DNA from: a virus
DNA length: 64,000 bases
Strand: one strand, 5' to 3'
Virus record (IMG/VR): IMGVR_UViG_3300042323_000705
Coordinates: 1 to 64,000 of that record
The position numbers and the translations under genes were made by a program. Each line of letters opens with the position of its first letter. The first letter of the stretch is position 1. A model generated the notes under the pieces. It made no database searches, was not told the DNA's origin, and worked only from the letters and a program-made list of their open reading frames with translations. Below, one piece after another: positions 3,127 to 61,143 of this stretch.

Positions 3127-3518
3127 TGTTTGAAGATATCATAGACACTTTTTATTCGTTACCACAAAATAACTTACTAGCAAATTTGCCCGTTTATCCG
3201 GCTGATTACCGAGGAACAATCTCTGCCGTTCCTTTTTTGAAGCTTAATATTGTAACCGGAAAAGCAAATCAATTTGCCTATAGAGATAACAAATTAGTTA
3301 CTGGTCTCGTCATTGTAAGTATTTATTACCCTGCTGGTAGTGGTCAAAAAGAACCTACTACAATTGCTAACTCTTTAGATCTTGTGTTCCAAAATAAATT
3401 TTTAGCTTACGGTATTCAAACTAATGTAAGCTCTTTACAGTTCATTGGACCAGATCCCGATGACTCAACTCTTTCAAGAGCAGATTATTCTGTTCCTTTT
3501 TCTTACTATGGAGAATAA
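3126..3518 (+). CDS. tail terminator-like protein
   Basis: G.V.VSIYYP.G.G pattern; lies just before the tail tube gene; SD AAGGAG. Confidence 0.6.
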   Translation: MFEDIIDTFYSLPQNNLLANLPVYPADYRGTISAVPFLKLNIVTGKANQFAYRDNKLVTGLVIVSIYYPAGSGQKEPTTIANSLDLVFQNKFLAYGIQTNVSSLQFIGPDPDDSTLSRADYSVPFSYYGE

Positions 3519-45643: not shown

Positions 45644-45669
45644 GGGGGGCCGCGAAGCCCCCCTTTTTT
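45644..45669 (+). terminator. terminator closing the small-terminase island
   Basis: GGGGGGC-CGCGAA-GCCCCCC-TTTTTT. Confidence 0.85.
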
Positions 45670-49317: not shown

Positions 49318-49345
49318 GGGGGGCGCGAAGCCCCCCGTTTTATTT
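49318..49345 (+). terminator. terminator closing the large-terminase island
   Basis: GGGGGGC-GCGAA-GCCCCCC-GTTTTATTT, nearly identical to 45644. Confidence 0.75.
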
Positions 49346-49526
49346 ATACGTGTCGAAACACCAAACGTTTTTGATCGTCTGATGCTTCGGGTAGACTACA
49401 AAGCTTTGCAGCTTTTCGTTGATAAGTCGTCCACTCGATATTCCATAGTAGTTTTTTCTTATTAAGAACTTTTCTTTCAATAGACATCATTTTGCGAATG
49501 TAATATGACAACTCAATCAGATGCAT
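49344..49526 (-). CDS. hypothetical protein
   Basis: SD AAGGAG. Confidence 0.55.
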   Translation of the reverse strand: MHLIELSYYIRKMMSIERKVLNKKKLLWNIEWTTYQRKAAKLCSLPEASDDQKRLVFRHV

Positions 49527-49544
49527 TGTTTTGCTCCTTGTATT

Positions 49545-49814
49545 TCACAGGTTAGCTTTTTTAGACATGAGGTAAGTTTCTAGCTCGTTACTAAGTTTTT
49601 CGAGCTCTGCTTGCTTTTTATTTTTTATTTTTTCTACTTCTCTAGTAAAGTTAGCTCTTACTTCTTGTTTAGCCTTTCTATACTTTTCTAGCATAGCTTC
49701 TAATTCGTCTGTTATAGGGTAACTTGAGTTGTCAATTAAAAAGTCAATTGGCCCTGCAATGATCTTGTCGTACTTTTCTGTGTTTGTTTCTTTCCGAGAG
49801 AAAAAACTAAACAT
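49545..49814 (-). CDS. coiled-coil hypothetical protein
   Basis: SD AAGGA. Confidence 0.6.
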   Translation of the reverse strand: MFSFFSRKETNTEKYDKIIAGPIDFLIDNSSYPITDELEAMLEKYRKAKQEVRANFTREVEKIKNKKQAELEKLSNELETYLMSKKANL

Positions 49815-49833
49815 GGGTTTTCCTTTGTTGAAT

Positions 49834-49925
49834 TGGTAGAAGTGCCGAGTTTCGATCTCGGTCCAGAACAGTCATCTACTGCTAAAGGGATTATAAGGCC
49901 CTCCTGCGTCCCAACGCCCACTTCC
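49834..49925 (-). tRNA. non-canonical tRNA-like RNA, anticodon UAU (Ile-type), 92 nt
   Basis: Acceptor GGAAGTG/CACTTCT + A-CCA; D arm GCGT-TGGG-ACGC; loop CT-TAT-AA; long V arm; T arm CCGAG-ATCGAAA-CTCGG. Confidence 0.75.
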
Positions 49926-49930
49926 ATACT

Positions 49931-50107
49931 TTAACGATGATCCTTTGACTTTGGTTTAGCACGTTTATGCTTTTGAGTTTGGTATGTGCTAGTTGCACGA
50001 GTATGTTTGCGCCCTTTACGAAGATCACCACCTGCACAACAGCGACAGTGAGGGCGAACACCAAGACGAACGTCACAGTTAGCTTTTTCGTGATTTCCTG
50101 AATCCAT
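49931..50107 (-). CDS. small Cys-rich basic protein (58 aa, MDSGNHEKANC...)
   Basis: Read by eye; SD AAGAGG, stop 5 nt before the tRNA-like RNA. Confidence 0.55.
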   Translation of the reverse strand: MDSGNHEKANCDVRLGVRPHCRCCAGGDLRKGRKHTRATSTYQTQKHKRAKPKSKDHR

Positions 50108-50120
50108 GTTAGCCTCTTAG

Positions 50121-50687
50121 CTATATCTCATTTAGTTTAGCAAATTCACCATGGTATTTTAAAGCTGCTTCGTTATAAGCTTTTGCAGCTTCTATTAGGT
50201 CTTCAAAATAACCAATATGTTTAGTTATCGTATTTATCATTACTCTAGCTTGCCATTTTTCTTTTTCTTTATTCCAATGAACACCTTTATACCCAGAAGT
50301 ATTATTTTTAGGTTTTTTAGAATTTCTAGAATTTTCTTTTTGATTAGCTAACCTTAAATTCTCTAGTTTATTGTTAGAAGGATTCCCATCTATATGATCA
50401 ATATAGTATCCTTCAGGTATAGGACCATTAAACATTTGCCAGATTATCCTATGAACTCTAAAAGGACTACCTGCAATTGTTACTTCGAAATAGACTTTAC
50501 TGCTCTTATTTCCAGCAAGATCTCCTACTTTTTTATTATTACACATAGGATGAACAATTTTCCAGTAAATTTCTCCATTTTTATACTCAAAAATTTCATT
50601 AAGAGGTTTATTAAGAAATTCATTTTTTAACTGTTCTGCTTTTTGTTTTTTAATTTCATTATTTTTATGTAAATGTTCCCATCCCAT
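50121..50687 (-). CDS. HNH homing endonuclease with AP2 domain
   Basis: HRIIW...IDHIDG...NN...NLR, N...NTSGYKGV.W...KW.A...IGYF....EAA.AY...A...HGEFA; very AT-rich. Confidence 0.92.
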   Translation of the reverse strand: MGWEHLHKNNEIKKQKAEQLKNEFLNKPLNEIFEYKNGEIYWKIVHPMCNNKKVGDLAGNKSSKVYFEVTIAGSPFRVHRIIWQMFNGPIPEGYYIDHIDGNPSNNKLENLRLANQKENSRNSKKPKNNTSGYKGVHWNKEKEKWQARVMINTITKHIGYFEDLIEAAKAYNEAALKYHGEFAKLNEI

Positions 50688-50704
50688 ATTAGTTTCCTTT
50701 TTAA

Positions 50705-50780
50705 TGGCAGCTCCGGGGTGAATTGCACACCCGACCTAGAATTTAGAAGATTCTTGCTCTGTCTGCTGAGCTACGGAGCC
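50705..50780 (-). tRNA. tRNA-Arg(UCU), 76 nt
   Basis: GGCTCCG/CGGAGCT, D stem GCTC/GAGC, AGAAT-CTTCTAA-ATTCT, T arm GGGTG-TGCAATT-CACCC, G-CCA. Confidence 0.88.
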
Positions 50781-50786
50781 ATACCT

Positions 50787-50809
50787 TTCTGCTTTAGCGT
50801 TAAGAGGTG
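50787..50809 (-). promoter_or_regulatory. putative phage RNAP promoter (tRNA locus)
   Basis: CACCTCTTAACGCTAAAGCAGAA ending 6 nt before the tRNA-Arg 5' end. Confidence 0.75.
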
Positions 50810-50852
50810 AGAAGGCCAGCCATTAGTCACACAGCCAGCCTTCTCAAGTTTA

Positions 50853-51035
50853 TTACTGCATAGTCTCTACGATCTTGTCGATACGTTGATGCAGTCCTTC
50901 AAGTGTAGTCACAATTTCTTTCGTTGAAGTCCACTCATCGTCTTCATCTTTGCCTGAGTAGTTTAGGACAAAGCCGTTACTAACGATTTCAACATCAAAA
51001 GTTTCTACTTTTTTAGTTACAGGTTTCTTAGCCAT
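50853..51035 (-). CDS. hypothetical protein
   Basis: ..NGF.L...G pattern; SD GGAG. Confidence 0.55.
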   Translation of the reverse strand: MAKKPVTKKVETFDVEIVSNGFVLNYSGKDEDDEWTSTKEIVTTLEGLHQRIDKIVETMQ

Positions 51036-51368
51036 TTATGTCTCCAGTTTGTCAAGAGCAAACCACCACAGTTTCAACCGGGTGTTTGCATGTGATGTTT
51101 TAGTTGCCCACTTAGTGGATTTAAAACCAATGTCTTTCAAGAAGGCATTAGCTTTTACTTGTTTGTCGTTGGTAAAGGCTGTAACCATAGCCTTTCCTTC
51201 GTTTTTAAGCTTTAGCATTTCATTTAGCAAAGCTTCTTTAGTTTCTTCAACTTTCATGCCTGGATAGTTATAATCAGCTCCTTGAGCAGGAACTCCATCA
51301 CCATCAAAGCGAAAGCTAGACAGGACCACAGCAGTACAGCACGAGGCTACGTTATCTACTTTCATCAC
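51036..51368 (-). CDS. hypothetical protein, possibly degenerate GNAT fold
   Basis: CC...A.T...Q......L...GF layout. Confidence 0.45.
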   Translation of the reverse strand: MMKVDNVASCCTAVVLSSFRFDGDGVPAQGADYNYPGMKVEETKEALLNEMLKLKNEGKAMVTAFTNDKQVKANAFLKDIGFKSTKWATKTSHANTRLKLWWFALDKLET

Positions 51369-51964
51369 AGTTCTCCTACGACAAGACGCTTGCAGTTTTT
51401 AGCCGACAACTCAGAACAGTTATCTTGCTTAGTATCTAGCTCCGCTACAGTCCAAATTGTAGCGCCATACACAATAACATCATTCTGTTTCAGCTTATCC
51501 TTTTCAACAGTAGCATGACGAGGATTACCTGTTCCAGCCAACGGTACAAGTTTAACAGTATAAGGTTTCACTTCCTCAAGAGCATCTTTCTTAAATGCCT
51601 TGATAGCGTTGTTAGCGTCACCGCGAATCTCAAGTACTAGCTCACCAGCAGTATTGGTACCGATGTGGATACCATACACTTCTTCACCGATAACTTTGAA
51701 TAGCTTAGACATGGTTTTCTTTTCCTCTTTTGTGTTGCCGATTACTGTGTAGTTGCTTAGGCTGTAGTTATCACCATCATACAAGGTACAATCGTTTAAA
51801 CCTTTAGTATTGTAGTCTTGACCTTCCCAACGTTCTAAGGGACGGCAACTTGCTGTGTCTGCTCTGTCATTTCTAAGATGAATCTTGTAGACTTCAAGAG
51901 GCACCTTGTTACGTCGATGCTTTAGAACATCACCTTCTTTTAGATACTTTAGTACTACTGCCAT
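51365..51964 (-). CDS. hypothetical protein
   Basis: ORF track. Confidence 0.6.
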   Translation of the reverse strand: MAVVLKYLKEGDVLKHRRNKVPLEVYKIHLRNDRADTASCRPLERWEGQDYNTKGLNDCTLYDGDNYSLSNYTVIGNTKEEKKTMSKLFKVIGEEVYGIHIGTNTAGELVLEIRGDANNAIKAFKKDALEEVKPYTVKLVPLAGTGNPRHATVEKDKLKQNDVIVYGATIWTVAELDTKQDNCSELSAKNCKRLVVGEL

Positions 51965-52182
51965 TTTACCCCCAAGGTGTCTTTCCCAAATACAACGTAA
52001 AAGGGATTAGTGATTGCTGATGGAGCCTCTGAATAGCTCATGTGTTCATGATGGTCCCAGTCGTCTTCGTTCCAAGCCTTGTGCTCCTTTATCAGGTTAA
52101 ACTCTGCTTTACTCATAGAACGTATGTTCGCCATAGCGTCCGATCCTTTTTCTAGTGTTAAAGAAACCTTTACGAGATCCAC
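51955..52182 (-). CDS. hypothetical protein (start probably near 52134)
   Basis: ORF track. Confidence 0.45.
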   Translation of the reverse strand: MDLVKVSLTLEKGSDAMANIRSMSKAEFNLIKEHKAWNEDDWDHHEHMSYSEAPSAITNPFYVVFGKDTLGVKWQ

Positions 52183-52465
52183 TGTGGAAAAACAAAGCTT
52201 CAGTACCAGGTAACTCTGTGTGACCCCAGTATACTTCTCCTGCCATGGTTACTGAGTCTAAGAAGACAGCTTCAGTAATAGGCAGGTCTTTGTCAGACCA
52301 AGCGAATTGTTTAGGCTGGTAGACTACCTCACAAATAGTTGCTGGGAAGTCTTCGTGTTTAACTCTGTTCATGATAACCTCAGCTACAAGTAACTGGGCT
52401 TCGATAGTTTCTGAACGAGCTTCGTGGTAGAGAGCTAGGGCTAAGCATAGTACGCTTTCTAGCAT
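52109..52465 (-). CDS. SleB-like cell wall hydrolase
   Basis: CLA.A.YHEAR.E...VA.VI.NRV....FP.TIC.VV.Q..QF.W, H.FY. Confidence 0.9.
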   Translation of the reverse strand: MLESVLCLALALYHEARSETIEAQLLVAEVIMNRVKHEDFPATICEVVYQPKQFAWSDKDLPITEAVFLDSVTMAGEVYWGHTELPGTEALFFHSGSRKGFFNTRKRIGRYGEHTFYE

Positions 52466-52479
52466 GCTACCTCCTTTGT

Positions 52480-52680
52480 TTAGAAAGGAATCAGTAGAGA
52501 CTCCACGTACTGCATGTGATTTTCACTCATCTCTGCTAGGTCTTCATCAGTTATCTCTTTCCAAGTTGAGTTGTCTAAGGAACGCTCGATGTGTCTCCAG
52601 TCTCGACATCGATAGTACCAAACGGTTCCGTCGAACTCTGTGTAAGAGTTCAAAGGATCTATGCGGCAGTCGTTACACAT
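52480..52680 (-). CDS. hypothetical protein
   Basis: ORF track. Confidence 0.5.
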   Translation of the reverse strand: MCNDCRIDPLNSYTEFDGTVWYYRCRDWRHIERSLDNSTWKEITDEDLAEMSENHMQYVESLLIPF

Positions 52681-53089
52681 AGTTTATTGTCACTCCTGCT
52701 TCTTGTAGCATTGATCGTGCTACTGTGAAGTTACGATACCAAGAAGACCAAGGTTCAGGTGCAGGTGCTACTACTCTACTGATTCCTCGCTGTATAGCTA
52801 ACCCTGCACAAGTACTGCAGAGAAAGCTGGTACAGTAAAGAGTGGCTCCGTGGCAGTCGTTAGAGGAGAGAAGAGCATAAGTCTCTGCATGCACTACAAT
52901 TAGGTTCTTATACTCTTTGTCAGCCCAACGAGCATCGGTGTTAGCGATACCTTTAGGAAACTGGTTAAAGCCTCTAGTAAGGACTCTACCGTTTCTTGCA
53001 ACTACGCAACCTACTTTTTTGTTAGGATCTAGAGACCAAGAAGCTTGTTCTTGCGCTAGTCCAAAGTAGAACTGATCCTGATCATTCAT
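52673..53089 (-). CDS. dCMP deaminase-like protein
   Basis: S.DP..KVGCV, GFN..P.G, HAE, LYCT...C..C...I..GI..V. Confidence 0.88.
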   Translation of the reverse strand: MNDQDQFYFGLAQEQASWSLDPNKKVGCVVARNGRVLTRGFNQFPKGIANTDARWADKEYKNLIVVHAETYALLSSNDCHGATLYCTSFLCSTCAGLAIQRGISRVVAPAPEPWSSWYRNFTVARSMLQEAGVTINYV

Positions 53090-53262
53090 TCCAGTTCCTC
53101 TGTACAGTCACAGTCGTATACGTACTCAGACCAGATAGAGTCGTAACCAATGTCCATCTTAGCTTTCCATTCTCCTAGCGAAGTAGGGTCAAGCAGCAAA
53201 GAAAGACCAAACATAAACAGGATAGCCTTGTAGACTTGGTTGATGTACTCGTTCAGTCTCAT
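53086..53262 (-). CDS. small membrane protein (58 aa)
   Basis: Read by eye; ATGA overlaps on both sides. Confidence 0.5.
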   Translation of the reverse strand: MRLNEYINQVYKAILFMFGLSLLLDPTSLGEWKAKMDIGYDSIWSEYVYDCDCTEELE

Positions 53263-53669
53263 TTGTTTTCTCCTTTGATTTCTGCTATGAGGTCTTTGAT
53301 ACGTTTATTGTAAACTCCAGCACCACTGTGCATAGAGCTATTGTAACCTAATACTGATTTTAATAACTCTAGAGTCTTCTCGAGAAGTAGCTCCTTTTTG
53401 TGTAGTTTTTCAGCTAGTCGATCAGAAACAGCAGAGTGAGTCTTTATTGCTTCTTCAAGGTGATCTACTGGGCGTTCTCCTTCGTAGGCTTGCCAAAGTA
53501 AGTTGTAGTAACCTAGCTTGGCTTCAAGGGCTTCGATGCGATCGGCGCGGACGTATTCGATGCAAGGCTTATCGTTCAGCGTCTTGCCCTCGTTGTCGTC
53601 CCAATCGCCCTCGCTCCAATCGCCTTCGCGCCAAGGAGCAATCCAAATCCGTTCTGGTGCGTCAGTCAT
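53259..53669 (-). CDS. hypothetical protein, compositionally chimeric
   Basis: GC-rich 5' part (MTDAPERIW...EYVRAD), AT-rich 3' part. Confidence 0.65.
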   Translation of the reverse strand: MTDAPERIWIAPWREGDWSEGDWDDNEGKTLNDKPCIEYVRADRIEALEAKLGYYNLLWQAYEGERPVDHLEEAIKTHSAVSDRLAEKLHKKELLLEKTLELLKSVLGYNSSMHSGAGVYNKRIKDLIAEIKGENK

Positions 53670-53829
53670 AATGACACCCCAGTCTTCCGCAAATCATGCA
53701 GCGCGTTTCAAATACGATGTGACCGCGATCAGTGACATGGACTCGGCTAACCTTGTTTTTATGCAGACCAATCCAGTGCAGGAGTCTCCAAATCATTTCC
53801 CAGATTTGCCCGTTGTTGTAGTCAGTCAT
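53662..53829 (-). CDS. small protein (55 aa, MTDYNNGQIW...CMICG)
   Basis: Read by eye; ATGACTGA overlaps at both ends. Confidence 0.55.
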   Translation of the reverse strand: MTDYNNGQIWEMIWRLLHWIGLHKNKVSRVHVTDRGHIVFETRCMICGRLGCHYD

Positions 53830-54151
53830 CTCTTGCCTCTACATACTTCACGGCGATGCGGACATCGTGAGGGCTGACATAGCGAAGGGCGGCTTCTTTT
53901 GATGTGAAGGTCACCAAGCCGCCTCCTTTCGTCTCATTCACCCAGATCACCTTCGGCTCGACATGCTGTTTGACCACTTGGAAGGCGATGATATCTGCGT
54001 CACCATAGTCATGCCGCCATGAAATAAGTTTAGCCTGCCATAAAATAGGCAAACCCAAGTTTCTCCGCCACGCTCTAACCTCAGTCTCAGGATGCACAGG
54101 ACAGTCGCCACCGTTCCAGCCGTGGATTTTTCCGTCGTTGTAGTTGGTCAT
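53822..54151 (-). CDS. hypothetical protein (MTNYNDGKIHGWNGGDCPV...)
   Basis: SD GAGGAGG, ATG54151; W.GG.CPV...W.H.....DIIA pattern. Confidence 0.65.
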   Translation of the reverse strand: MTNYNDGKIHGWNGGDCPVHPETEVRAWRRNLGLPILWQAKLISWRHDYGDADIIAFQVVKQHVEPKVIWVNETKGGGLVTFTSKEAALRYVSPHDVRIAVKYVEARDD

Positions 54152-54213
54152 TTCGTCCTCCTCGCCGGGCAATCTCTACCTTGATTACAGTTGTTGTTAC
54201 AGGGTGGGCACAT
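54148..54213 (-). CDS. Cys-rich micropeptide MCPPCNNNCNQGRDCPARRTK (21 aa)
   Basis: SD AAGGAG, ATGA coupling to next gene. Confidence 0.55.
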   Translation of the reverse strand: MCPPCNNNCNQGRDCPARRTK

Positions 54214-54240
54214 GGTTCTCTCCTTAGTTTGTTAACCTCC

Positions 54241-54263
54241 CACCTCTTAGCTATAAAGAAGAA
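54241..54263 (+). promoter_or_regulatory. putative phage RNAP promoter with no + strand gene downstream
   Basis: CACCTCTTAGCTATAAAGAAGAA, full consensus. Confidence 0.75.
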
Positions 54264-54386
54264 TGAGAGTTCTTTGGGGGTCGTCATCAGTGGTTCAGTT
54301 AGAAGAACTATGATGTTTTTCCTACTTTCCGGTGACTAGCGTCAGCTATAGGGGGTAGGGGGCCATCATAGTGGTTAGTTAGAAGA
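54256..54386 (+). ncRNA. candidate structured ncRNA / replication primer RNA
   Basis: Hairpin 54307-54372 relying on G-U pairs on the + strand; two imperfect direct repeats; G5-TA-G5 tract. Confidence 0.4.
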
Positions 54387-54650
54387 GAGAAGAAATAAAT
54401 CAGTCACATCTAACTTCTTTTCTTCTTCTTTCTTCTTATACTGATCTAGTATCAACTGTGCTTCTTCTTGTGTTTTAACCACACAATAAAATAGCTGTAA
54501 ATCTGGAAAGCGAAAAGTAGTCAACTCTGAACATACACCAGACCACTCATACACTGGTTTAGACCACCAGAGCATACCTGTTGTTCTTCCTGTTGATTTC
54601 CAAACCTGAGGAACATAGCCTTTAGTGACCACGACAATACGTGTTTTCAT
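54375..54650 (-). CDS. hypothetical protein (start MKTRIVV...)
   Basis: SD GGAGG before ATG54650. Confidence 0.55.
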   Translation of the reverse strand: MKTRIVVVTKGYVPQVWKSTGRTTGMLWWSKPVYEWSGVCSELTTFRFPDLQLFYCVVKTQEEAQLILDQYKKKEEEKKLDVTDLFLLSSN

Positions 54651-54651
54651 G

Positions 54652-54903
54652 TTACGCCTCCAGACGGTTGTGAACAGCCAACGGTACTTCATTATGACGT
54701 ACCTTTGTCCAGTGTTCTTTAGCGAGACTAAACACATAGTCTCCCTGTTTGTAACTGTACTCGTAGTCAAGGTCAGCCCACATAATCTTTACCTTGTCTA
54801 CAGTGATACGTGCCCACTTGTTACGTACAGGATGGTGATACCAACCCTGTGCACAGTAGTAGCCACGGTTGTTGACGGTAGTTACAGCGGTGTCCTTGCT
54901 CAT
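54652..54903 (-). CDS. hypothetical protein
   Basis: ORF track, coupled. Confidence 0.55.
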   Translation of the reverse strand: MSKDTAVTTVNNRGYYCAQGWYHHPVRNKWARITVDKVKIMWADLDYEYSYKQGDYVFSLAKEHWTKVRHNEVPLAVHNRLEA

Positions 54904-55199
54904 AGTCCTAGTTCCTTCTTTAGCTGTTCATATTGTGAGCGTTTGTAAGCTTGCTGTCGAGTAGCTTCTAATACTACTCTTTTATTGTACTCTTCTTCTG
55001 TCTCTCCACGATAGAAGATCCAACGTAGTTCTACTGAACCTTCATAGTCTGTACAATATTCGAAGTAAACACCATCACAGCCAAATAGAGACTTAGCTCT
55101 TTCTTGTGCTGCTTTAGTTTCTGCTTCTATTGTGCTTGCAGGAGTTTCATATCCCCAGTTTATTACTTCTTCGACTAGGTTAAACTTACGACGAGTCAT
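54900..55199 (-). CDS. hypothetical protein
   Basis: R.ET.EEY..R...YE.LK.E pattern. Confidence 0.6.
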   Translation of the reverse strand: MTRRKFNLVEEVINWGYETPASTIEAETKAAQERAKSLFGCDGVYFEYCTDYEGSVELRWIFYRGETEEEYNKRVVLEATRQQAYKRSQYEQLKKELGL

Positions 55200-55337
55200 A
55201 CTGCCTCCAGTTGTTTGTAATGTTTCTTAAAGGGTCGATAGTAAGGTTTAGTTTTTAACAACACCATACCATCCCCAAGAAAAGCTTCAATTCTAGCTTC
55301 ATGTCCAGTATTTGAAATTCGAACTAACTCTCCTTTG

Positions 55338-55721
55338 CTAAAGGGACCTCCACCCTTCTTTTGTGGTGTAGTAGGTTCTTTTGATTCCGAATGCTTCAAT
55401 TGCACGTGAGCATCCATCGCAAGGGCAACTTGACGCTGTACTTCCATCTTTACAAGTTCTAGCAACATAAAGAGTGCACTCCTTTAGTATTTCGGTTCCA
55501 TAAAGATTCACTGCCCTGATTATGCAGTCTATTTCTGCATGCAAGTTTACACAGTCAGGGTGTTTATTGTAACGTAGCATCATAGGATGCGTTTTGTAGC
55601 GGTTGACTCCTGTGGCCAACAACCGGCCTCGGTAGTAGAGTCCCGCTGCATGTTTAGAGCGGAACACTGGTTCTGTTTTCCTTGCCAGTTCGATTATATA
55701 ACTAGCGTGATTTACTTCCAC
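55338..55721 (-). CDS. second zinc-dependent deaminase (CMP/dCMP superfamily)
   Basis: H.A...G.N, LHAE.D, LYVAR, S.PC..C...I...GI...YYT. Confidence 0.85.
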   Translation of the reverse strand: MEVNHASYIIELARKTEPVFRSKHAAGLYYRGRLLATGVNRYKTHPMMLRYNKHPDCVNLHAEIDCIIRAVNLYGTEILKECTLYVARTCKDGSTASSCPCDGCSRAIEAFGIKRTYYTTKEGWRSL

Positions 55722-56068
55722 GATCGACCTAGCTCAAACACGTACCTAAAGTATTCTTTTTCTAGTAGATAAGAAGACTTATCTTTAGCTTCTTCCCAAG
55801 CTTTCTCCCAAGGTTCTAGCTTGTTTTCTAAATAGTAACTTACTGCATTTGTTGTAGTTAAGAATCGGAAAGTAATAGCAGAGACACGATGTATAGATCC
55901 TCCTGCATTCTCTACAATTAGCTCTCCTTGTCGATTTTTACCGATGTAATGAAAGTCACCCCAACCTTTAACTGTGAGAGGTTTAGATAAATCTACTGTA
56001 GGCATTTTAGTTTCCTTTGCAGGTGGATAGTCTCGTTGACAGATAGAACAACTTCCAGATAGACACAT
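55712..56068 (-). CDS. hypothetical protein, paralog of next gene
   Basis: Ends FELGRSWK. Confidence 0.6.
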   Translation of the reverse strand: MCLSGSCSICQRDYPPAKETKMPTVDLSKPLTVKGWGDFHYIGKNRQGELIVENAGGSIHRVSAITFRFLTTTNAVSYYLENKLEPWEKAWEEAKDKSSYLLEKEYFRYVFELGRSWK

Positions 56069-56556
56069 TATTTCCAGCTCCTACCTAGCTCAAAAGCATC
56101 TTTGAAGGTTTGTTCAACTGAGTATTCTTTTTCAGCTGGTTGACCTTTCCAGAGCTCAAAAGCTTGTTTCCACTCTTGTGGTGGGTTAGTTACTCGAACA
56201 AATCCTAGTTGACCTTGTACAAGTCCTGTATCTTTGTAAGCAGCGTAGACTGTTCCATCTGCAGTCTCTACTACTACCTTGTCTCCTTTTTTAGTTGAAG
56301 AGACTAAGAGAGTACAAGTCAGAGGAGCTTGACCTAAACCTTCGATTTGTAGCGGTTCTTTCCAGTTTACTGTCATTTTAAGTTTCCTGAATAGTGTGTA
56401 CTTAAGGTTTCCTAACCGACGAACACCTGTACTAGTTTCAATAGTAAGGTAGCCGTTAGCGTCTTGTTTCAGTTGATAACGTTCACCATGTTGAGTCTCA
56501 ACACAGTCTCCACGGCAAACACTATAAACGATTTCATCTCCATACTTCCAAGTCAT
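56068..56556 (-). CDS. hypothetical protein
   Basis: Ends FELGRSWK. Confidence 0.6.
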   Translation of the reverse strand: MTWKYGDEIVYSVCRGDCVETQHGERYQLKQDANGYLTIETSTGVRRLGNLKYTLFRKLKMTVNWKEPLQIEGLGQAPLTCTLLVSSTKKGDKVVVETADGTVYAAYKDTGLVQGQLGFVRVTNPPQEWKQAFELWKGQPAEKEYSVEQTFKDAFELGRSWK

Positions 56557-56777
56557 GTTGCGGTATAGGTCCCTTCTGGTAGCCCAAGAGCGGTTAACGC
56601 TTCTCTTAGCTGTTGGTTTGTCATTTCTACGACTTCATAACGCTCATACTCTTCATTCCACTGACGAACAAAGACTCCCTGCTCGTCGAGTAGCCATTCA
56701 ACGTCTTCTAGTCGTCCACTGTCGTCTAGTACTGTTATAATCGACTCCGCGAACACATGCTCTACTGTGAAGGTCAT
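56553..56777 (-). CDS. hypothetical protein
   Basis: FTVE...IT.LD..G..EDV...V..RQW...AL.LPEG.Y. Confidence 0.6.
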   Translation of the reverse strand: MTFTVEHVFAESIITVLDDSGRLEDVEWLLDEQGVFVRQWNEEYERYEVVEMTNQQLREALTALGLPEGTYTAT

Positions 56778-56952
56778 TGCTTTGATACCGCCTGATACCA
56801 GAACAAACCCTCTTTATAGGTTGCTCCTGTTGTTGACCAGCCTAGACGAGTTAGCTTTGCTACATCAGATAGTAGCTTAGATTCTGAGTAAGCGCGTAGT
56901 ACTTGTTGGATCATTTTGACCTCAGTTAGCCATGAAAAAAATAATGAAGTTT

Positions 56953-56979
56953 AGAAAGCCCCCGCCGAAGCGGGAGCCT
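56953..56979 (-). terminator. early-region terminator-like hairpin
   Basis: - strand GGCTCCCGC-TTCG-GCGGGGGCT-TTCT. Confidence 0.65.
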
Positions 56980-56983
56980 TATC

Positions 56984-57169
56984 TTACCAAAACAACACAG
57001 CAGTTACTAGGAAAGCACCTATTCCTGCTTGATAGTTTTCGGAAGAAACTCCTACAAAGATACCAAACAGCAATGCAGCAAGCAAAGCAGAAGGACCTAG
57101 TCGAAGTCTTGGTAGTTTCAGAGAAGAAACTATGATTACAAACAGTATGATGCTACCTATGATAATCAT
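56984..57169 (-). CDS. small hydrophobic membrane protein
   Basis: Three hydrophobic stretches. Confidence 0.55.
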   Translation of the reverse strand: MIIIGSIILFVIIVSSLKLPRLRLGPSALLAALLFGIFVGVSSENYQAGIGAFLVTAVLFW

Positions 57170-57180
57170 CTATTTTTACC

Positions 57181-57426
57181 TTACACAAGAGTAGGGGCAG
57201 TAAAGCCGGGGTAGTAAACTGCAATACGCTTTGCAGACTTGTTTAGTAAACGTTGAAAAATCTCAACGTCTTGGTTATTACCTTTATCGTAGTCAGCAAG
57301 TAACTTATAGAAGTAACGAAGCTCTAGTTTCTTATATGCTTCTTTCTGTTTACGATGCTCAAGATACTCATGAACACCAACAACAATACCGATGAAAAAC
57401 AATGCCACAAAGGTTGCAGTCCACAT
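57181..57426 (-). CDS. membrane-anchored hypothetical protein
   Basis: N-terminal TM helix; SD GGAG. Confidence 0.55.
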   Translation of the reverse strand: MWTATFVALFFIGIVVGVHEYLEHRKQKEAYKKLELRYFYKLLADYDKGNNQDVEIFQRLLNKSAKRIAVYYPGFTAPTLV

Positions 57427-57427
57427 T

Positions 57428-57646
57428 TCACACTCTCCGTCCAGTGAAGGGTTTTTGATCTGAAGCTAGCTCGTATAGTCTTTGCCAAGCTACTTCGGTT
57501 GAAGCGTAGTATACCTCAGCCCAAACGAATCCGGGCTGAAGCTTTCTGTTACAGACGAACTGTCCAAATCTCAAAGACGACCGAAGACTTGAATCGCCAA
57601 TCCAAGTGTTCCAGAGCGTTCTAAGCTCTTCAGTTGTGAGTTCCAT
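57428..57646 (-). CDS. hypothetical protein
   Basis: LRFGQF..N pattern. Confidence 0.55.
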   Translation of the reverse strand: MELTTEELRTLWNTWIGDSSLRSSLRFGQFVCNRKLQPGFVWAEVYYASTEVAWQRLYELASDQKPFTGRRV

Positions 57647-57795
57647 TTCTTTTTGTTCCCTTTCATTCTAAACACGATAGCAAGTTCAGCTTCTTTCAGC
57701 CGATGCTTCCAACCATGTTCGGTTACGAGTAACTCGTAGGTCACCCAAGAAACTTCGAGTAACTTTCCTGAGTCTAGTTGTGCGTAGTATCTCAT
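57571..57795 (-). CDS. hypothetical protein
   Basis: SD AAGGAG. Confidence 0.5.
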   Translation of the reverse strand: MRYYAQLDSGKLLEVSWVTYELLVTEHGWKHRLKEAELAIVFRMKGNKKKWNSQLKSLERSGTLGLAIQVFGRL

Positions 57796-57853
57796 GTTTC
57801 TCTCCTTAAGAGGGTTGTAGTCGAGCAGTTAGTCGCTTGCTCAGGCCAAGACT

Positions 57854-58042
57854 CTACAGAGTCATTACCAGTTCGTACACCGCAACACCTGCAAGAGTCT
57901 TAGTTACGTCCTCATGCAACTCAAGGGCTTTTTTCAAAGCTTCTTCTTTGTTACCTGCCATGAAGTAATCGCTTGTCATAAAACCGTTTTCACCATCGTC
58001 AGTGGTGAAAGCCAGTTTAACAAAGTACGGCATTGCTCTCAT
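57854..58042 (-). CDS. hypothetical protein, first gene of the - strand block
   Basis: SD GGAGG before ATG58042. Confidence 0.5.
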   Translation of the reverse strand: MRAMPYFVKLAFTTDDGENGFMTSDYFMAGNKEEALKKALELHEDVTKTLAGVAVYELVMTL

Positions 58043-58144
58043 AAGAGCCTCCATCGTTGGGGGTTAAGAGATTTCTCGTCTTGAGATTATCTCATTATAG
58101 ATACACACTTTTCCTCACTTTTTTAGCATACCAAAAGGAATAAA

Positions 58145-58822
58145 ATGACCAAAAGAATTCGTACTCGCCCACGACCTCTAGTTGAAAAGGCTGTCCACAT
58201 TCAGCCAAAGACTCAAAACCAAGATCGGCTAATCAGAGCTATCGAGCAAAACCAGTTAGTAGTTACAATTGGTCCAGCAGGTGTTGGTAAAACTTATTGT
58301 GCTGTTAACGCAGCTGTAAACTTGCTTGTGCAAGGTCGTGTAAAGAAACTGGTACTAGTTCGTGCTAATATTCCTACAGGAAAAACTCTTGGTTCTTTCC
58401 CCGGTGACATTTACGATAAGCTTGGTCCTTGGTTAGCTCCCATGACTAGTGAGATTAAAAAGAGACTTGGTGCAAATGACTACGATGCTAAGCGTCATTC
58501 AGGTCAAATCGAGTTTCATCCGCTAGAAACTATTCGTGGTGCTAGCTTTGAGGACACAATTATTCTTGTTGACGAATCTCAGAACTTAACTTATGAAGAA
58601 GTGAAGGCAATTACTACAAGAATCGGTGAGAACTCTAAAATGATTCTTATGGGTGATCCAATGCAAAGAGATACACGTGACTCTGGTCTAACAACCTTTA
58701 AAAAGATTATTAATCAATTTAACTTAGAGATTCCTGTTGTTGAGTTTGATCTAGACGATATCGTTCGTTCTGATCTAGTTGCTCAGCTTGTGAAAGCCTA
58801 TGTAAAATATGAGAAAAACTAA
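58145..58822 (+). CDS. phoH: PhoH-like ATPase
   Basis: GPAGVGKT, LG.FPG, RGASF, DE.QN, TRIG, GD..Q.D, DIVRS. Confidence 0.93.
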   Translation: MTKRIRTRPRPLVEKAVHIQPKTQNQDRLIRAIEQNQLVVTIGPAGVGKTYCAVNAAVNLLVQGRVKKLVLVRANIPTGKTLGSFPGDIYDKLGPWLAPMTSEIKKRLGANDYDAKRHSGQIEFHPLETIRGASFEDTIILVDESQNLTYEEVKAITTRIGENSKMILMGDPMQRDTRDSGLTTFKKIINQFNLEIPVVEFDLDDIVRSDLVAQLVKAYVKYEKN

Positions 58823-58906
58823 CACACACTAACGCCCATTGTTTTCAGGCCAAAAACTTTACTAAAAGAATCGACCCTGAAACTCTAAAAATAAAGGACA
58901 ACAAAT

Positions 58907-59215
58907 ATGGCAAGAAATCAAGCAGCAGTGCATGTACCAGTTGGTGTATGGACTGAACTAACTGGCGGTGATGCAACTAAGATCACATGGCAAATCGTCA
59001 CTAACGAAGACAAACTAAACGGTGTTTACGTTCGTGTAACAGATACTGGCACAGCTCCAACAGACCAGTACGGCCTCCATTTCGCAACTTGGGATGATGC
59101 TGAGATTAATCGTGCACTTACAGACTATCGTGCAGGTGTAGCAGGCTCTAAACGTGTCTGGGCCAAAGCAATTAAAGAAGCTGTTGTAGTAGTCGTATCA
59201 GACGATAGCGTATAA
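58907..59215 (+). CDS. small putative virion protein
   Basis: Beta-rich, high-expression codons, SD AAGGA. Confidence 0.55.
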   Translation: MARNQAAVHVPVGVWTELTGGDATKITWQIVTNEDKLNGVYVRVTDTGTAPTDQYGLHFATWDDAEINRALTDYRAGVAGSKRVWAKAIKEAVVVVVSDDSV

Positions 59216-59231
59216 CTCTAAGGAGAACTAA

Positions 59232-60803
59232 ATGACCCAGATACCAACTCTTACTTCGAAGTCTAGTGTTGGCACTCCAACTTACGAATATGAATCTATG
59301 GTTCGTATCTGGAAACGTTGCCGCGCTATTCTAAACGGAGAGCTTTATGCTAAAGAGCATGACCGTTATCTCGATCAAGTTAACTACACTAACCTACTAG
59401 TACCTTTTAGTCCTCGTATGTCAGCAGAACAGTATCGCTGGTACGTAGCTGAAGCAGAACTACCCGGTTTAACTTCACAGTATGCAAAGATTCTTACAGG
59501 TGGTTTGCTTCGTAAGCCACCAGAAATTATGCTACCTGAAACAGTACCTGAAGAAGCTGCCTCTTGGCTACGTAACCGCTTTACGGAAGATGGTCGTCCA
59601 ATTATTGCTTTTCTTGATGCTGCTATTTGGGAAGAGCTATCGACTTCACGTGGTTGGGTTTCTGTAGACTTTCCTATGGTTCCTAACTACACTGATTTAG
59701 ATCCTGAACAAAAACAAATGATTGCGCCTTATCCAGTTCTTTGGAGAGCTGAGGACGTTATTAACTGGCAAACAGGTATTGATAAATCCACTGGTCGTCC
59801 AACTCTTACTCGTATTGTTTTCCGTTACATTGGCAGAACTTATAGAGACTCTGAGTGGCATCCTAACTTAGACATTGTTGCTGCGGATCATTATCTTGAT
59901 GAAGAAGGTATTTACAGAGTACAATACTACAAAAAAGAAGGTGAAGCTACAGTAGACCTGATTAACGGTGACATTAAAATGACTCAGCTCTTTGGTACTG
60001 AGCTGTTTAGTAATGACCACTGGATTGCAGACGGTGAACCTTTAACTCCAATGATGTGGGGTGAGCCAATGACACAGCTCCCTATTTTCCCATTAAATGG
60101 TGAAGTTACCCTCGAAGCTCCAATGCTAACTCCTCTTATTGACAAAGAAATTGCTCTTTACAACAAAATCTCTCGTCGTAATCATCTTCTTTATGGTGCA
60201 GCTACTTTTACTCCTGTAGTGTTTTCAGACATGAGCAACGAAGACTTTCAACAAGTAGTTAATGCTGGTTTAGGCTCCTGGATTAAATTAGGCTCACAAG
60301 ACAAAATTGATGCTTTTAAAACTCCAACGGATGCTTTGTCAGATATGGATCGTGCAATTGAAGGTGCCTTAGCTGAAATGTCTCGTTTCGGTACTCAGAT
60401 TCTAGCACCAGACGCAAGAACTGGAGACTCTGGTATTGCGCTTGAAATTAGAAACTCTAGCATCACAGCTCAGCTAGGACTTCTTAACAACAAGCTCTCT
60501 GCTACTATGGCAGAAGTTCTTAAGCTAATGATTAGATGGCGTTATGGAAAAGATGTAGAAGTTGAAGATCTTAAATTCAAACTATCAGCAGACTTTAACC
60601 CAACACCTCTTGGTTCTGAATGGACTCGTCTAGTAACTGAATGGTATCAGAATCGTTTGATTCCTCGTTCTGTATGGCTTTCTGTAGCTAAGCAGCATGA
60701 TATTATTCCTAATGATTATGATGATGTAGCAGGTATGGAAGAGATCGGCCAAGATCCTCTGATTCAAGATAACTCTGGCATGGACATAGAGGACAATATA
60801 TAA
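59232..60803 (+). CDS. portal protein (DUF4055-like)
   Basis: 523 aa; Y..Y...AE.P, G...RK, VD.P, E..INW, P.L..L. Confidence 0.85.
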   Translation: MTQIPTLTSKSSVGTPTYEYESMVRIWKRCRAILNGELYAKEHDRYLDQVNYTNLLVPFSPRMSAEQYRWYVAEAELPGLTSQYAKILTGGLLRKPPEIMLPETVPEEAASWLRNRFTEDGRPIIAFLDAAIWEELSTSRGWVSVDFPMVPNYTDLDPEQKQMIAPYPVLWRAEDVINWQTGIDKSTGRPTLTRIVFRYIGRTYRDSEWHPNLDIVAADHYLDEEGIYRVQYYKKEGEATVDLINGDIKMTQLFGTELFSNDHWIADGEPLTPMMWGEPMTQLPIFPLNGEVTLEAPMLTPLIDKEIALYNKISRRNHLLYGAATFTPVVFSDMSNEDFQQVVNAGLGSWIKLGSQDKIDAFKTPTDALSDMDRAIEGALAEMSRFGTQILAPDARTGDSGIALEIRNSSITAQLGLLNNKLSATMAEVLKLMIRWRYGKDVEVEDLKFKLSADFNPTPLGSEWTRLVTEWYQNRLIPRSVWLSVAKQHDIIPNDYDDVAGMEEIGQDPLIQDNSGMDIEDNI

Positions 60804-60997
60804 TGTTTTTAGCAATGCTACTAGTGTGCACTTCAGCTGAAGTACAATCTTGCGAAATCTTTTACAATACTGAAGAGGTCTTTGTAACTCAAGAAGCTTG
60901 TGAAGCAGATCTTGATGAAGCTTCTACTTTTCTTGACAGTCCTGAAGTTTACTACAGCAAGACTGGTTGCATTGTTCTTCCAGGAGACTCTGCATAA
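60803..60997 (+). CDS. small Cys-containing protein
   Basis: TAATG coupling; L.C......C...F.T...C...C. Confidence 0.55.
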
Positions 60998-61143
60998 TGC
61001 CACTTAAAAAAGGTTATTCACAAAAGACCATTTCTTCAAATATTCGTAGAGAGAAAAAACGTGGTCATTCACAGAAACAATCTGTAGCTATCGCTTTGTC
61101 GGTAGCTGCAGAGGCTAAGAAGAAAAGAAATAAAAAGAAATAA
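60997..61143 (+). CDS. small basic protein (48 aa, MPLKKG...KQSVAIALS)
   Basis: Read by eye; TAATG coupling; pattern common in phage head modules. Confidence 0.65.

What the first reader, a model, noticed from the sequence alone, without database searches (positions are those of the whole stretch)
54241..54386. Orphan consensus promoter driving a structured G-rich non-coding segment: candidate RNA-primed origin or regulatory RNA
Seen: a full-consensus motif copy points + into a gap, with the next convincing + strand gene 3.9 kb away. Downstream lie a stem AGTTCTT/AAGAACT, a long hairpin ACTATGATG(54307)...CATCATAGT(54372) whose inner U-rich/G-rich arms pair only through G-U on this strand, two imperfect direct repeats (GGGGG..CATCA..GTGGTT.AGTTAGAAGA at 54276-54306 and 54358-54386), and GGGGGTAGGGGG at 54351-54362, about 95 nt from the predicted start. 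Established: T7 RNAP transcripts prime T7 replication, and the T7-like mitochondrial RNAP forms a primer R-loop at the split G-tract of CSB II about 100 nt from its promoter. Inference: a CSB II-like switch between hairpin and R-loop that sets priming versus read-through to the late genes, or an antisense/sRNA.
Basis: partly seen in the sequence, partly recalled or inferred. Interest (0 to 1): 0.8.

Follow-up and report, generated by a model that had tools for sequence, protein, structure and literature searches.

The report
Backward-facing phage promoter with G-rich leader
A lake-water phage keeps one copy of its own RNA-polymerase promoter pointing against its early genes; it is followed by a conserved folded leader that hides a G-run like the one that sets replication priming in mitochondria, and it is probably the start of the late (head and portal) transcript.

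Summary
The motif at 54241-54258 is one of only five copies in the 73.8-kb phage record, which encodes a T7-type RNA polymerase. It faces + inside a minus-strand operon.

The promoter and its 105-135-nt leader recur in seven diverged sequence types from lake metagenomes. All seven share:
- an invariant 5' hairpin followed by G5;
- two direct repeats that change together;
- a middle segment complementary to both repeats;
- a pyrimidine tract that pairs, half through G-U, with a split G-tract G5(A/UA)G5-6 found once per genome.

Its start (AAGA) puts it in the late class. No other promoter copy or strong terminator lies before the PhoH-portal block at 58145. A 70%-related clade has the same promoter directly in front of that block. 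Metatranscriptome contigs begin at 54269 and run on to 61000, but their strand is unknown.

Best reading (0.55): this is the late promoter, reading antisense through 3.9 kb of early genes, with a leader that gates read-through.

The scan had already noted this same stretch in an overlapping window, but not on other DNA.

The parts
54241..54263 (+). Promoter of the phage T7-type RNA polymerase, late class. It has 17 nt upstream, then G at 54258 as the inferred +1, followed by AAGAA.
   Evidence: One of 5 copies in the genome, against 0.28 expected. The RNAP gene is at 39665-41845(-). All + strand late-module copies are followed by an A-rich start (AAGA, AAAG or AGGG), and all minus-strand copies by CAGA or CATA.
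54258..54275 (+). 5'-terminal hairpin H1: 7 bp closed by a GAGA tetraloop, starting at the inferred +1.
   Evidence: Present in the minimum-energy fold of five of the seven types, window included. Its sequence is invariant in all seven, so there is no covariation to score.
54276..54306 (+). Repeat R1: invariant G5 (54276-80), a variable part, and the box AGTTAGAAGA (54297-54306).
   Evidence: Conserved in all seven types. Box changes (TCAG in type D, TAAAAG in type F) are the same in R1 and R2 of a given genome.
54304..54315 (+). Middle segment M, complementary to the variable part of both R1 and R2 (alternative pairings).
   Evidence: Cognate M x R1 and M x R2 duplex energies beat permuted pairings among the seven types (p = 0.008 and 0.003). 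The ensemble favours M:R1 in types A, D and F, and M:R2 in types B, C, E and G.
54316..54330 (+). Pyrimidine tract that pairs with the split G-tract.
   Evidence: It pairs with the G-tract in 7 of 7 types when the segment from the R1 box to the R2 box is folded alone. The interrupting A pairs with U, and UA pairs with UA. Over all types the tract makes 29 G-C and 30 G-U pairs. In the full-leader ensemble the window type instead favours M:R1.
54351..54362 (+). Split G-tract G5-UA-G5 (G5AG6 or G4AG5 in five other types), resembling mitochondrial CSB II.
   Evidence: It is the only such tract in each of the five genomes or contigs that carry the element. No G changes to A in any type, although half of its partners are U. 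It lies 70-94 nt from +1.
54358..54386 (+). Repeat R2: the 3' run of the G-tract, a variable part, and the box AGTTAGAAGA (54377-86). The box overlaps the stop and last codons of the minus-strand gene 54375-54650.
   Evidence: The box stays conserved although it sits in different reading positions, or outside the gene, in types B, F and G.
54307..54372 (+). Long hairpin: M plus pyrimidine tract paired with G-tract plus the R2 variable part.
   Evidence: The + strand folds at -19 to -41 kcal/mol against -5 to -22 for the minus strand. The + strand z-score is -2.1 to -4.4 in six of seven types.
54387..58144 (+). Inferred read-through path, antisense to the minus-strand early genes 54375-58054.
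   Evidence: No convincing + gene lies here. No strong + terminator of the phage's G6C..GC6 type lies here. RNA-library contigs cover it and bridge 58005-58401.
58145..60803 (+). First genes of the late block (PhoH-like 58145-58822, portal 59232-60803), with no promoter copy of their own.
   Evidence: Pfam matches to PhoH and to the portal-associated DUF4055. No motif copy lies in 58055-58144. In clade G003 two promoter copies sit directly upstream of the PhoH homologue.

Best explanation
This is a working late-class promoter for the phage's own T7-type RNA polymerase, placed head-on inside the minus-strand early operon.

Transcription is inferred to start at G 54258. The first 105-135 nt form a conserved cis-acting leader with four parts:
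- a 5'-terminal GAGA-tetraloop hairpin;
- a free G5;
- two repeats that compete for one complementary middle segment;
- a pyrimidine tract that masks a split G-tract through a weak, G-U-rich helix.

Polymerases that pass the leader continue about 3.9 kb antisense through the early genes and into the PhoH-portal-head block. This is the only phage promoter available to that block. Late transcription would therefore oppose early expression by collision and by antisense RNA.

The leader is inferred to act as a gate. With the G-tract masked, the polymerase reads through. With it unmasked, the polymerase pauses, stops or leaves an RNA-DNA hybrid.

What is shown: the promoter family, the conservation, strand-specific pairing with compensating changes, and the genome layout.

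What is inferred: the start site, the read-through, and the gating.
For: Promoter family:
- Five copies of the motif against 0.28 expected. Four of them sit just upstream of transcription units on the matching strand.
- A cognate T7-type RNAP gene is present.
- Across six genomes every late-module copy starts A-rich (AAGA, AAAG or AGGG) and every replication-module copy starts CAGA or CATA. The orphan copy starts AAGA.

Genome layout:
- No motif copy lies between 54241 and the late genes.
- The other + units are closed by strong terminators at 45644 and 49318. None lies between 54259 and 58145.
- In clade G003, whose RNAP is 70% identical, two copies lie directly before the PhoH homologue, and the second has the same AAGAATGA start.

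Conservation:
- The element keeps the same syntenic place, 3.6-4.8 kb from the late block, in every contig long enough to show it (types A, B, C and F), while neighbouring proteins are only 37-66% identical.

Structure:
- + strand-specific pairing with compensating changes.

RNA libraries:
- In run X19 depth is 0 over 53411-54212 and 13-25 from 54213 to 61000. A contig begins at 54269 and another bridges 58005-58401.
- Runs X20 and X21 show the same step at the promoter.
Against: - The RNA evidence comes from contigs without strand or true ends. A minus-strand early transcript ending in the gap, plus a separate late start, would look similar. One X21 contig also extends upstream of the promoter in a relative.
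- The late genes could be served by host RNA polymerase or by the second, head-borne polymerase from an unrecognised promoter.
- The leader has no canonical terminator (no U-run), so a gate has no demonstrated stop mechanism.
- The strict conservation of the G-runs and of both repeats is more than a plain mRNA leader needs, which points to an extra function.
- Only seven sequence types exist, and some are related, so the compensating changes represent few independent events.
Confidence: 0.55

Rival explanations
1. Transcription-primed replication origin. The phage polymerase starts at 54258. [quoted passage not shown] The pyrimidine tract and the R1/M/R2 competition would decide how often this happens. 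This can coexist with read-through, as at T7 promoters 1.1A/B and at the mitochondrial LSP.
For: - The split tract (G5AG6, G4AG5 or G5UAG5) lies 70-94 nt from a T7-type promoter in all seven types and occurs once per genome.
- The G-runs never change to A, although 30 of 59 pairs are G-U, so the G-runs themselves are under selection.
- The CSB II RNA used in PMC3488243 reads G5AG7. There T7 polymerase forms a CSB II-dependent, 7-deaza-GTP-sensitive R-loop of about 120 bp.
- The genome encodes a T7-like DNA polymerase and a primase-helicase.
- The element is absent where the promoter directly abuts the late gene (clade G003).
Against: - There is no replication evidence of any kind.
- GC skew shows no turning point at 54 kb and follows gene orientation.
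- The G-tract is predicted to be paired with the pyrimidine tract in six of seven types in the full-leader ensemble, all but the window's own.
- An RNA contig passes straight through it.
- The cultured relative DSS3_VP1 has no split G-tract.
Confidence: 0.2
2. Stand-alone small or antisense RNA. The product that matters is the first 100-150 nt, or a processed piece of it. It would act on the complementary early mRNA or on a host factor, and late genes would have another promoter.
For: - Conserved + strand structure and an invariant 5' hairpin.
- Whichever pairing M adopts, one repeat copy is left single-stranded.
- The transcript is fully complementary to the early operon upstream of 54375.
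Against: - No terminator follows R2.
- No other target site exists in the phage genome beyond chance 9-11-mers.
- No Rfam family matches: the only hit is a 23-nt chance match below threshold.
- RNA contigs continue beyond the element.
Confidence: 0.1
3. DNA-level protein sites. R1, M (inverted) and R2 are three copies of a binding site for a phage-specific DNA-binding protein. That protein could be a repressor or roadblock on the late promoter, an initiator binding iterons, or a terminase small subunit at a packaging site, as with the orphan promoters near T7 genome ends.
For: - The three segments change together between phage types.
- R1 keeps two extra C's relative to R2 in four of the seven types (B, C, E and G), so plain gene conversion does not explain the likeness.
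- A fast-evolving small gene (54375-54650) is adjacent in six of seven types.
Against: - The pyrimidine tract / G-tract helix depends on G-U pairs and so makes sense only as + strand RNA.
- Type C lacks the adjacent gene.
- The model of that gene's protein (pLDDT 88.6) matches no DNA-binding fold: the best Z is 5.9 to a PH domain and AP2-type domains reach only Z 3.5.
- Genome termini are unknown.
Confidence: 0.1
4. Minus-strand function. The C-rich, untranslated complement of the element would be a Rho-loading or anti-termination site that divides the early operon, and the + promoter would be incidental.
For: - The gap is untranslated.
- It is C-rich and G-poor on the minus strand.
- Early transcripts must cross it to reach 54213-49891.
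Against: - Minus-strand folds are weak and close to shuffled values (z = -0.5 to -2.1).
- The pairing pattern is specific to the + strand.
- The promoter, the 5' hairpin and G5 are invariant over 41 nt in all types.
Confidence: 0.05

Closest known systems
Late (class III-type) promoters of T7-like phages with 5' stem-loop leaders (e.g. T7 phi10)
   Same: - A conserved motif of about 23 bp read by the phage's own single-subunit polymerase.
- A G-initiated transcript.
- A hairpin at the very 5' end.
- It drives structural genes.
   Different: - It lies 3.9 kb from its genes and fires head-on into an early operon.
- It carries a leader of 105-135 nt with two co-evolving repeats and a masked split G-tract.
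- The genome is 74 kb, bidirectional, and has a second, head-borne polymerase.
Mitochondrial LSP / CSB II primer-or-read-through switch (POLRMT)
   Same: - A T7-family polymerase.
- A split G-tract (G5AG6 against G5-6AG7-8) on the non-template strand, roughly 70-120 nt from the promoter.
- A further G-run upstream.
- The same promoter would serve both gene expression and, possibly, priming.
   Different: - No evidence here for termination, a hybrid quadruplex or priming.
- A conserved pyrimidine tract pairs with the G-tract, and repeats flank it.
- No U-rich stretch follows the tract.
T7 primary origin (promoters 1.1A/1.1B) and the orphan end promoters phiOL/phiOR
   Same: Phage-polymerase promoters whose transcripts have roles beyond mRNA, in priming and in concatemer processing. 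phiOR has no gene of its own downstream.
   Different: - A single promoter, not a tandem pair.
- A G-rich structured leader instead of an AT-rich priming zone.
- Its position relative to the genome ends is unknown.
ColE1 RNA II primer formation
   Same: - Alternative folds of a nascent RNA.
- A G-rich segment that can hold the RNA on the C-rich template.
- A complementary counter-transcript exists (here the early mRNA).
   Different: - Host polymerase and a 550-nt pre-primer in ColE1.
- No RNase H site or origin is defined here.
Convergent (face-to-face) promoter switches such as coliphage 186 pR/pL
   Same: A late or alternative promoter firing against an early operon, so that collision and antisense RNA lower early expression.
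   Different: - Here the opposing polymerase is the phage's own T7-type enzyme.
- The overlap is 3.9 kb.
- The antisense transcript goes on to encode the late proteins.

Membership tests
T7-type single-subunit RNAP promoter | A conserved motif of about 17-23 bp, repeated in the genome far above chance and oriented with the downstream units. | tested here: met
   5 copies against 0.28 expected. Four directly precede a gene or tRNA on the same strand. The same motif occupies syntenic places in five relatives.
T7-type single-subunit RNAP promoter | A cognate single-subunit polymerase encoded by the same genome. | tested here: met
   PF00940, E = 4.9e-76, for 39665-41845(-). An earlier scan note reports a second polymerase fused to MuF. 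Which enzyme reads the motif is not known.
T7-type single-subunit RNAP promoter | Transcripts start at the predicted +1. | tested here: inconclusive
   An RNA-library contig begins at 54269 (+12), and depth steps from 0 to 13.5 at the promoter. Contigs give neither strand nor true ends.
CSB II-type G-quadruplex / R-loop primer element | A split G-tract on the non-template strand, about 100 nt downstream of a T7-family promoter. | tested here: met
   G5UAG5 at 54351-62, 93 nt from 54258. G5AG6, G4AG5 or G5UAG5 at 70-94 nt in the other types. The tract is unique in each genome.
CSB II-type G-quadruplex / R-loop primer element | G-dependent premature termination just downstream of the tract. | not testable with these tools
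   This needs in vitro transcription or stranded 3'-end data. The one RNA contig crossing the site (54269-55046) shows only that some molecules cover it.
CSB II-type G-quadruplex / R-loop primer element | A stable RNA-DNA hybrid and RNA-to-DNA transitions (a replication start). | not testable with these tools
   No raw reads or replication data are available. GC skew is uninformative.
Intrinsic terminator / classical attenuator | A stable hairpin immediately followed by a U-run. | tested here: not met
   No U-run follows the long hairpin or R2 in any type. The phage's real terminators (G6C..GC6 plus a T-run) lie at 45644 and 49318 only.
T7 primary origin | Tandem phage promoters followed by an AT-rich priming zone. 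| tested here: not met
   There is a single promoter. The first 130 nt are G-rich and structured. The next 60 nt are about 30% GC but are coding sequence.
Any curated RNA family (Rfam 15) | A match at or above the family's gathering score. | tested here: not met
   The only hit is a 23-nt match to HIV-1 SL3 at 20.8 bits, against a gathering score of 33.

The most novel reading that the evidence does not exclude
A T7-family phage polymerase uses a CSB II-like split G-tract, normally masked by a pyrimidine tract and set by competing repeats, to switch between making a replication primer (R-loop or hybrid quadruplex) and reading through to the late genes. This would be a phage counterpart, and a possible forerunner, of the mitochondrial LSP/CSB II transcription-replication switch.
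Probability: 0.2. Interest if true: 0.85.

Novelty: new variant of a known kind. Interest (0 to 1): 0.6.

Why it matters
If the main reading holds, this phage group times its late genes with its own polymerase firing backwards through the early operon. A single promoter would then both start late expression and oppose early expression. A conserved RNA leader sits at that decision point.

The leader is small, sharply defined, and has natural variants that already show which parts must match. It can be tested in vitro with one purified polymerase.

If the G-tract turns out to stop the polymerase or to hold the RNA on the DNA, it would be the first phage example of the mechanism that mitochondria use to choose between transcription and replication. 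The mitochondrial enzymes are themselves of T7-phage descent.

Tried and rejected
- **Rfam:** a scan of 53000-56000 at a permissive threshold gave one chance hit only.
- **Sigma-70 promoters and intrinsic terminators:** a scan of 49500-58400 found nothing above shuffles near the element.
- **More distant carriers of the element:**
  - The scan for G5WG5...AGTTAGAAGA in viral contigs found only the same clade plus two chance hits.
  - The 18-mer scan of viral contigs gave no new types.
  - The search through homologues of the neighbouring protein gave no new types.
- **Relatives at about 50% protein identity:** they have no gap at the homologous place.
- **DSS3_VP1, the nearest cultured phage (43% RNAP identity):** all its genes are on one strand and it has no split G-tract, so it is no model for this arrangement.
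- **Trans targets of the repeats in the phage genome:** only chance 9-11-mers.
- **A coding reading of the leader:** the short AUG frames differ in every type and have no ribosome-binding site.
- **Function of the adjacent gene 54375-54650:**
  - No Pfam or PHROG match.
  - The Atlas gave only weak fold likeness to integrase arm-binding domains, TM 0.39-0.45.
  - A good model (pLDDT 88.6) found no clear fold: no Foldseek match with E <= 0.001, and best VIA Z 5.9.
- **MAFFT alignment of the seven leaders:** it does not keep the helix registers. I scored pairing per sequence and by cognate-versus-permuted arms instead.
- **GC skew:** it follows gene direction and has no turning point at 54 kb.
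- **RNA coverage:** parts without cover in the RNA contigs are not used as evidence of absence beyond the step at the promoter.

Full report
**What the window is**

The window is the first 64 kb of a 73,778-nt IMG/VR virus record from lake water. It encodes a T7-type single-subunit RNA polymerase (39665-41845, minus strand; PF00940, E = 4.9e-76). It also encodes a family-A DNA polymerase, a primase-helicase and ribonucleotide reductase.

The nearest cultured phages are the roseophages DSS3_VP1 and DSS3_PM1 of the Naomviridae, at 43% polymerase identity.

The record is not closed. A close relative, G001 (90-97% identical), has 1.83 kb more between the record's end and its start. That stretch lies inside a very long + gene and carries one further promoter copy.

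**The observation**

The motif CACCTCTTWRCNNTAAAG occurs 5 times against 0.28 expected, and exactly 5 times in the whole record.

| Position | Strand | What follows |
|---|---|---|
| 28718 | minus | the ribonucleotide reductase small-subunit gene |
| 39646 | minus | the unit that follows the polymerase gene |
| 50792 | minus | a tRNA-Arg, 12 nt downstream |
| 44286 | plus | an ATG, 20 nt downstream |
| 54241 | plus | no gene: it faces a run of minus-strand genes, and the next + gene starts at 58145 |

The geometry of 17 nt followed by a conserved G puts the likely start at G 54258. This start is inferred.

The real non-coding gap is 54214-54374. On one side lies a 91-codon minus-strand gene (54375-54650). 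On the other lies a 21-codon Cys-rich micro-ORF (54148-54213) with its own ribosome-binding site. Its stop overlaps the next start codon, and its amino-acid sequence is kept through synonymous changes in a relative.

**Conservation**

The promoter-based scan of viral contigs, followed by BLAST of the early block against the loci it fetched, and a motif scan of metagenome contigs found the element in seven sequence types. These are A (the window and G001), B, C, D, E, F and G.

The element keeps the same syntenic place. It lies next to the homologue of gene 54375-54650 in six of seven types. It lies 3.6-4.8 kb from the PhoH-portal block in the four types (A, B, C, F) whose contigs reach that block. 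The neighbouring proteins are only 37-66% identical.

All types share the following, in order:
- the promoter;
- an invariant 18-nt start that folds into a 7-bp hairpin with a GAGA loop;
- an invariant G5;
- repeat R1, made of a variable part and the box AGTTAGAAGA;
- a middle segment M;
- a pyrimidine tract;
- a short loop;
- a split G-tract, G5AG6, G4AG5 or G5UAG5;
- repeat R2, made of a variable part and the same box.

When the box changes, it changes in both repeats of that genome: AGTCAGAAGA in type D and AGTTAAAAGA in type F. R1 carries two extra C's relative to R2 in types B, C, E and G.

The R2 box overlaps the last codons and the stop of the neighbouring gene in the window. In other types it sits in other reading positions or outside the gene, so coding does not explain its conservation.

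The split G-tract is the only one in each genome that carries the element.

**Structure**

The + strand leader folds at -19 to -41 kcal/mol. Its complement folds at -5 to -22 kcal/mol. Against dinucleotide shuffles the + strand z-scores are -2.1, -4.4, 0.0, -2.6, -3.0, -4.2 and -2.7.

In all seven types the pyrimidine tract pairs with the split G-tract when the stretch from the R1 box to the R2 box is folded alone.
- The interrupting A pairs with a U in the five types that have it.
- The interrupting UA pairs with a UA in the two types that have it.
- Over all types the tract makes 29 G-C and 30 G-U pairs. The helix therefore exists only in + strand RNA.
- The G's never become A, although A-U would pair better. 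The G-runs are thus selected for themselves and not only for pairing.

In the ensemble of the full leader this helix holds in six types. In the window's own type the M:R1 fold wins instead.

The arms outside this helix differ in every type, yet they stay complementary. I compared cognate pairings with all 5,040 permuted pairings of the seven types. Cognate M x R2 duplexes are better (p = 0.003), and so are M x R1 duplexes (p = 0.008).

M can therefore pair with either repeat. The ensemble favours M:R1 in types A, D and F, and M:R2 in types B, C, E and G. This explains why the two repeats must stay alike.

**What the promoter serves**

Across six genomes or contigs the copies fall into two classes by what follows the motif.
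- Every copy that runs with the replication module is followed by CAGA or CATA.
- Every copy that runs with the packaging or structural module is followed by an A-rich start (AAGA, AAAG or AGGG).

The orphan copy is AAGA.

The other + units end at strong terminators of the form G6C..GC6 plus a T-run, at 45644 and 49318. None lies between 54259 and 58145. The gap before the first late gene (58055-58144) holds no motif copy. It holds only a conserved minus-strand element with a TATAAT.

In clade G003 (70% polymerase identity) two promoter copies lie directly in front of the PhoH homologue. The second has the same AAGAATGA start as the orphan, and no repeats or masked G-tract follow it. The simplest history is that the same late promoter now sits behind an early-gene block in the window's clade.

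**RNA libraries**

Four metatranscriptome runs hold the phage, as contigs only.
- In X19, depth is 0 over 53411-54212 and 13-25 from 54213 to 61000.
- One X19 contig begins at 54269, which is +12. It runs through the whole element to 55046.
- Another X19 contig bridges the divergent gap (58005-58401).
- X20 and X21 show the same step at the promoter: 0.4 to 7.5 and 0.6 to 6.4.

This fits a + strand transcript from the promoter into the late genes. Contigs carry no strand and no true ends, so I count it as a weak hint.

**Reading**

The best-supported account is a late promoter that fires head-on through the early operon into the late block, with a conserved leader at its start (confidence 0.55). 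The leader's design suggests a gate on elongation: a 5' hairpin, competing pairings, and a weak G-U helix over G-runs that are conserved for their own sake.

It has real biochemical precedent with T7 polymerase (PMC3488243, PMC3664831), and it would explain the invariant G-runs. Nothing here shows termination, a hybrid or a replication start, and GC skew is silent on the point. I put it at about 0.2. It could hold alongside read-through.

The lesser rivals are a stand-alone small RNA, DNA-level protein sites, and a minus-strand function. The first has no terminator or target behind it. The G-U dependence of the pairing argues against the other two.

**Limits**

- There are only seven sequence types, and they are partly related.
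- There are no stranded reads.
- The host is unknown.
- The genome ends are unknown.
- It is not known which of the two polymerases reads the motif.

Noticed in passing
window 54148-54213 (-): A 21-codon Cys-rich micro-ORF (MCPPCNNNCNQGRDCPARRTK) with its own ribosome-binding site. Its stop overlaps the next start codon (ATGA). The amino-acid sequence is identical in type B through many synonymous changes, so it is probably a real mini-protein.
   Followed up: partly
window 1 and record end (73778); L180 880-2900: The record is cut inside a very long + gene. Relative G001 has 1.83 kb more there, including a sixth promoter copy followed by a G-rich and then C-rich hairpin leader. The CheckV figure of '100% complete' is therefore too generous.
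   Followed up: partly
window 58090-58116 (-); L185 about 388-420 and 3170-3196: A conserved element, GAGGAAAA-N4-GTATCTATAATGAGA, lies on the minus strand at the head of the early operon. It occurs twice in clade G003. It is a candidate early promoter, for the host or the virion polymerase.
   Followed up: no
window 45644-45663 and 49318-49336: Two near-identical G6C..GC6 hairpins with T-runs close the two + strand packaging islands. The stem is self-complementary, but only the + strand is followed by a clear T-run.
   Followed up: partly
L199/L200 (DSS3_VP1) 2333, 19202, 19237, 45926, 46393, 46551, 59196: The cultured relative has its own promoter family, ATAGGGTGCGTTAAAG followed by AGGGGGA. 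It shares the CGTTAAAG end with the window's motif. Two full copies and a partial third sit just upstream of the portal gene.
   Followed up: partly
L180 1579-1596 (G001:21579) and G003:11085: A one-mismatch promoter copy (GACCTCTTAGC..TAAAG followed by AAAGA) lies inside the long MuF-polymerase gene, at what looks like the same place in two clades. It is either an internal promoter or a coding coincidence.
   Followed up: no
L185 3224-3247 (G003): Between the two tandem late promoters of clade G003 lies a G-rich and then C-rich stretch (GGGAGGG..C6TGC5). It is the only split G/C tract of that contig, and here the C-run is on the transcribed sense.
   Followed up: no
L035 6935-7150: Another late-class promoter copy in clade G003 is followed by a long structured leader ending in a T-arm-like GGTTCGATTC...CCA. 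ARAGORN calls no tRNA there.
   Followed up: partly
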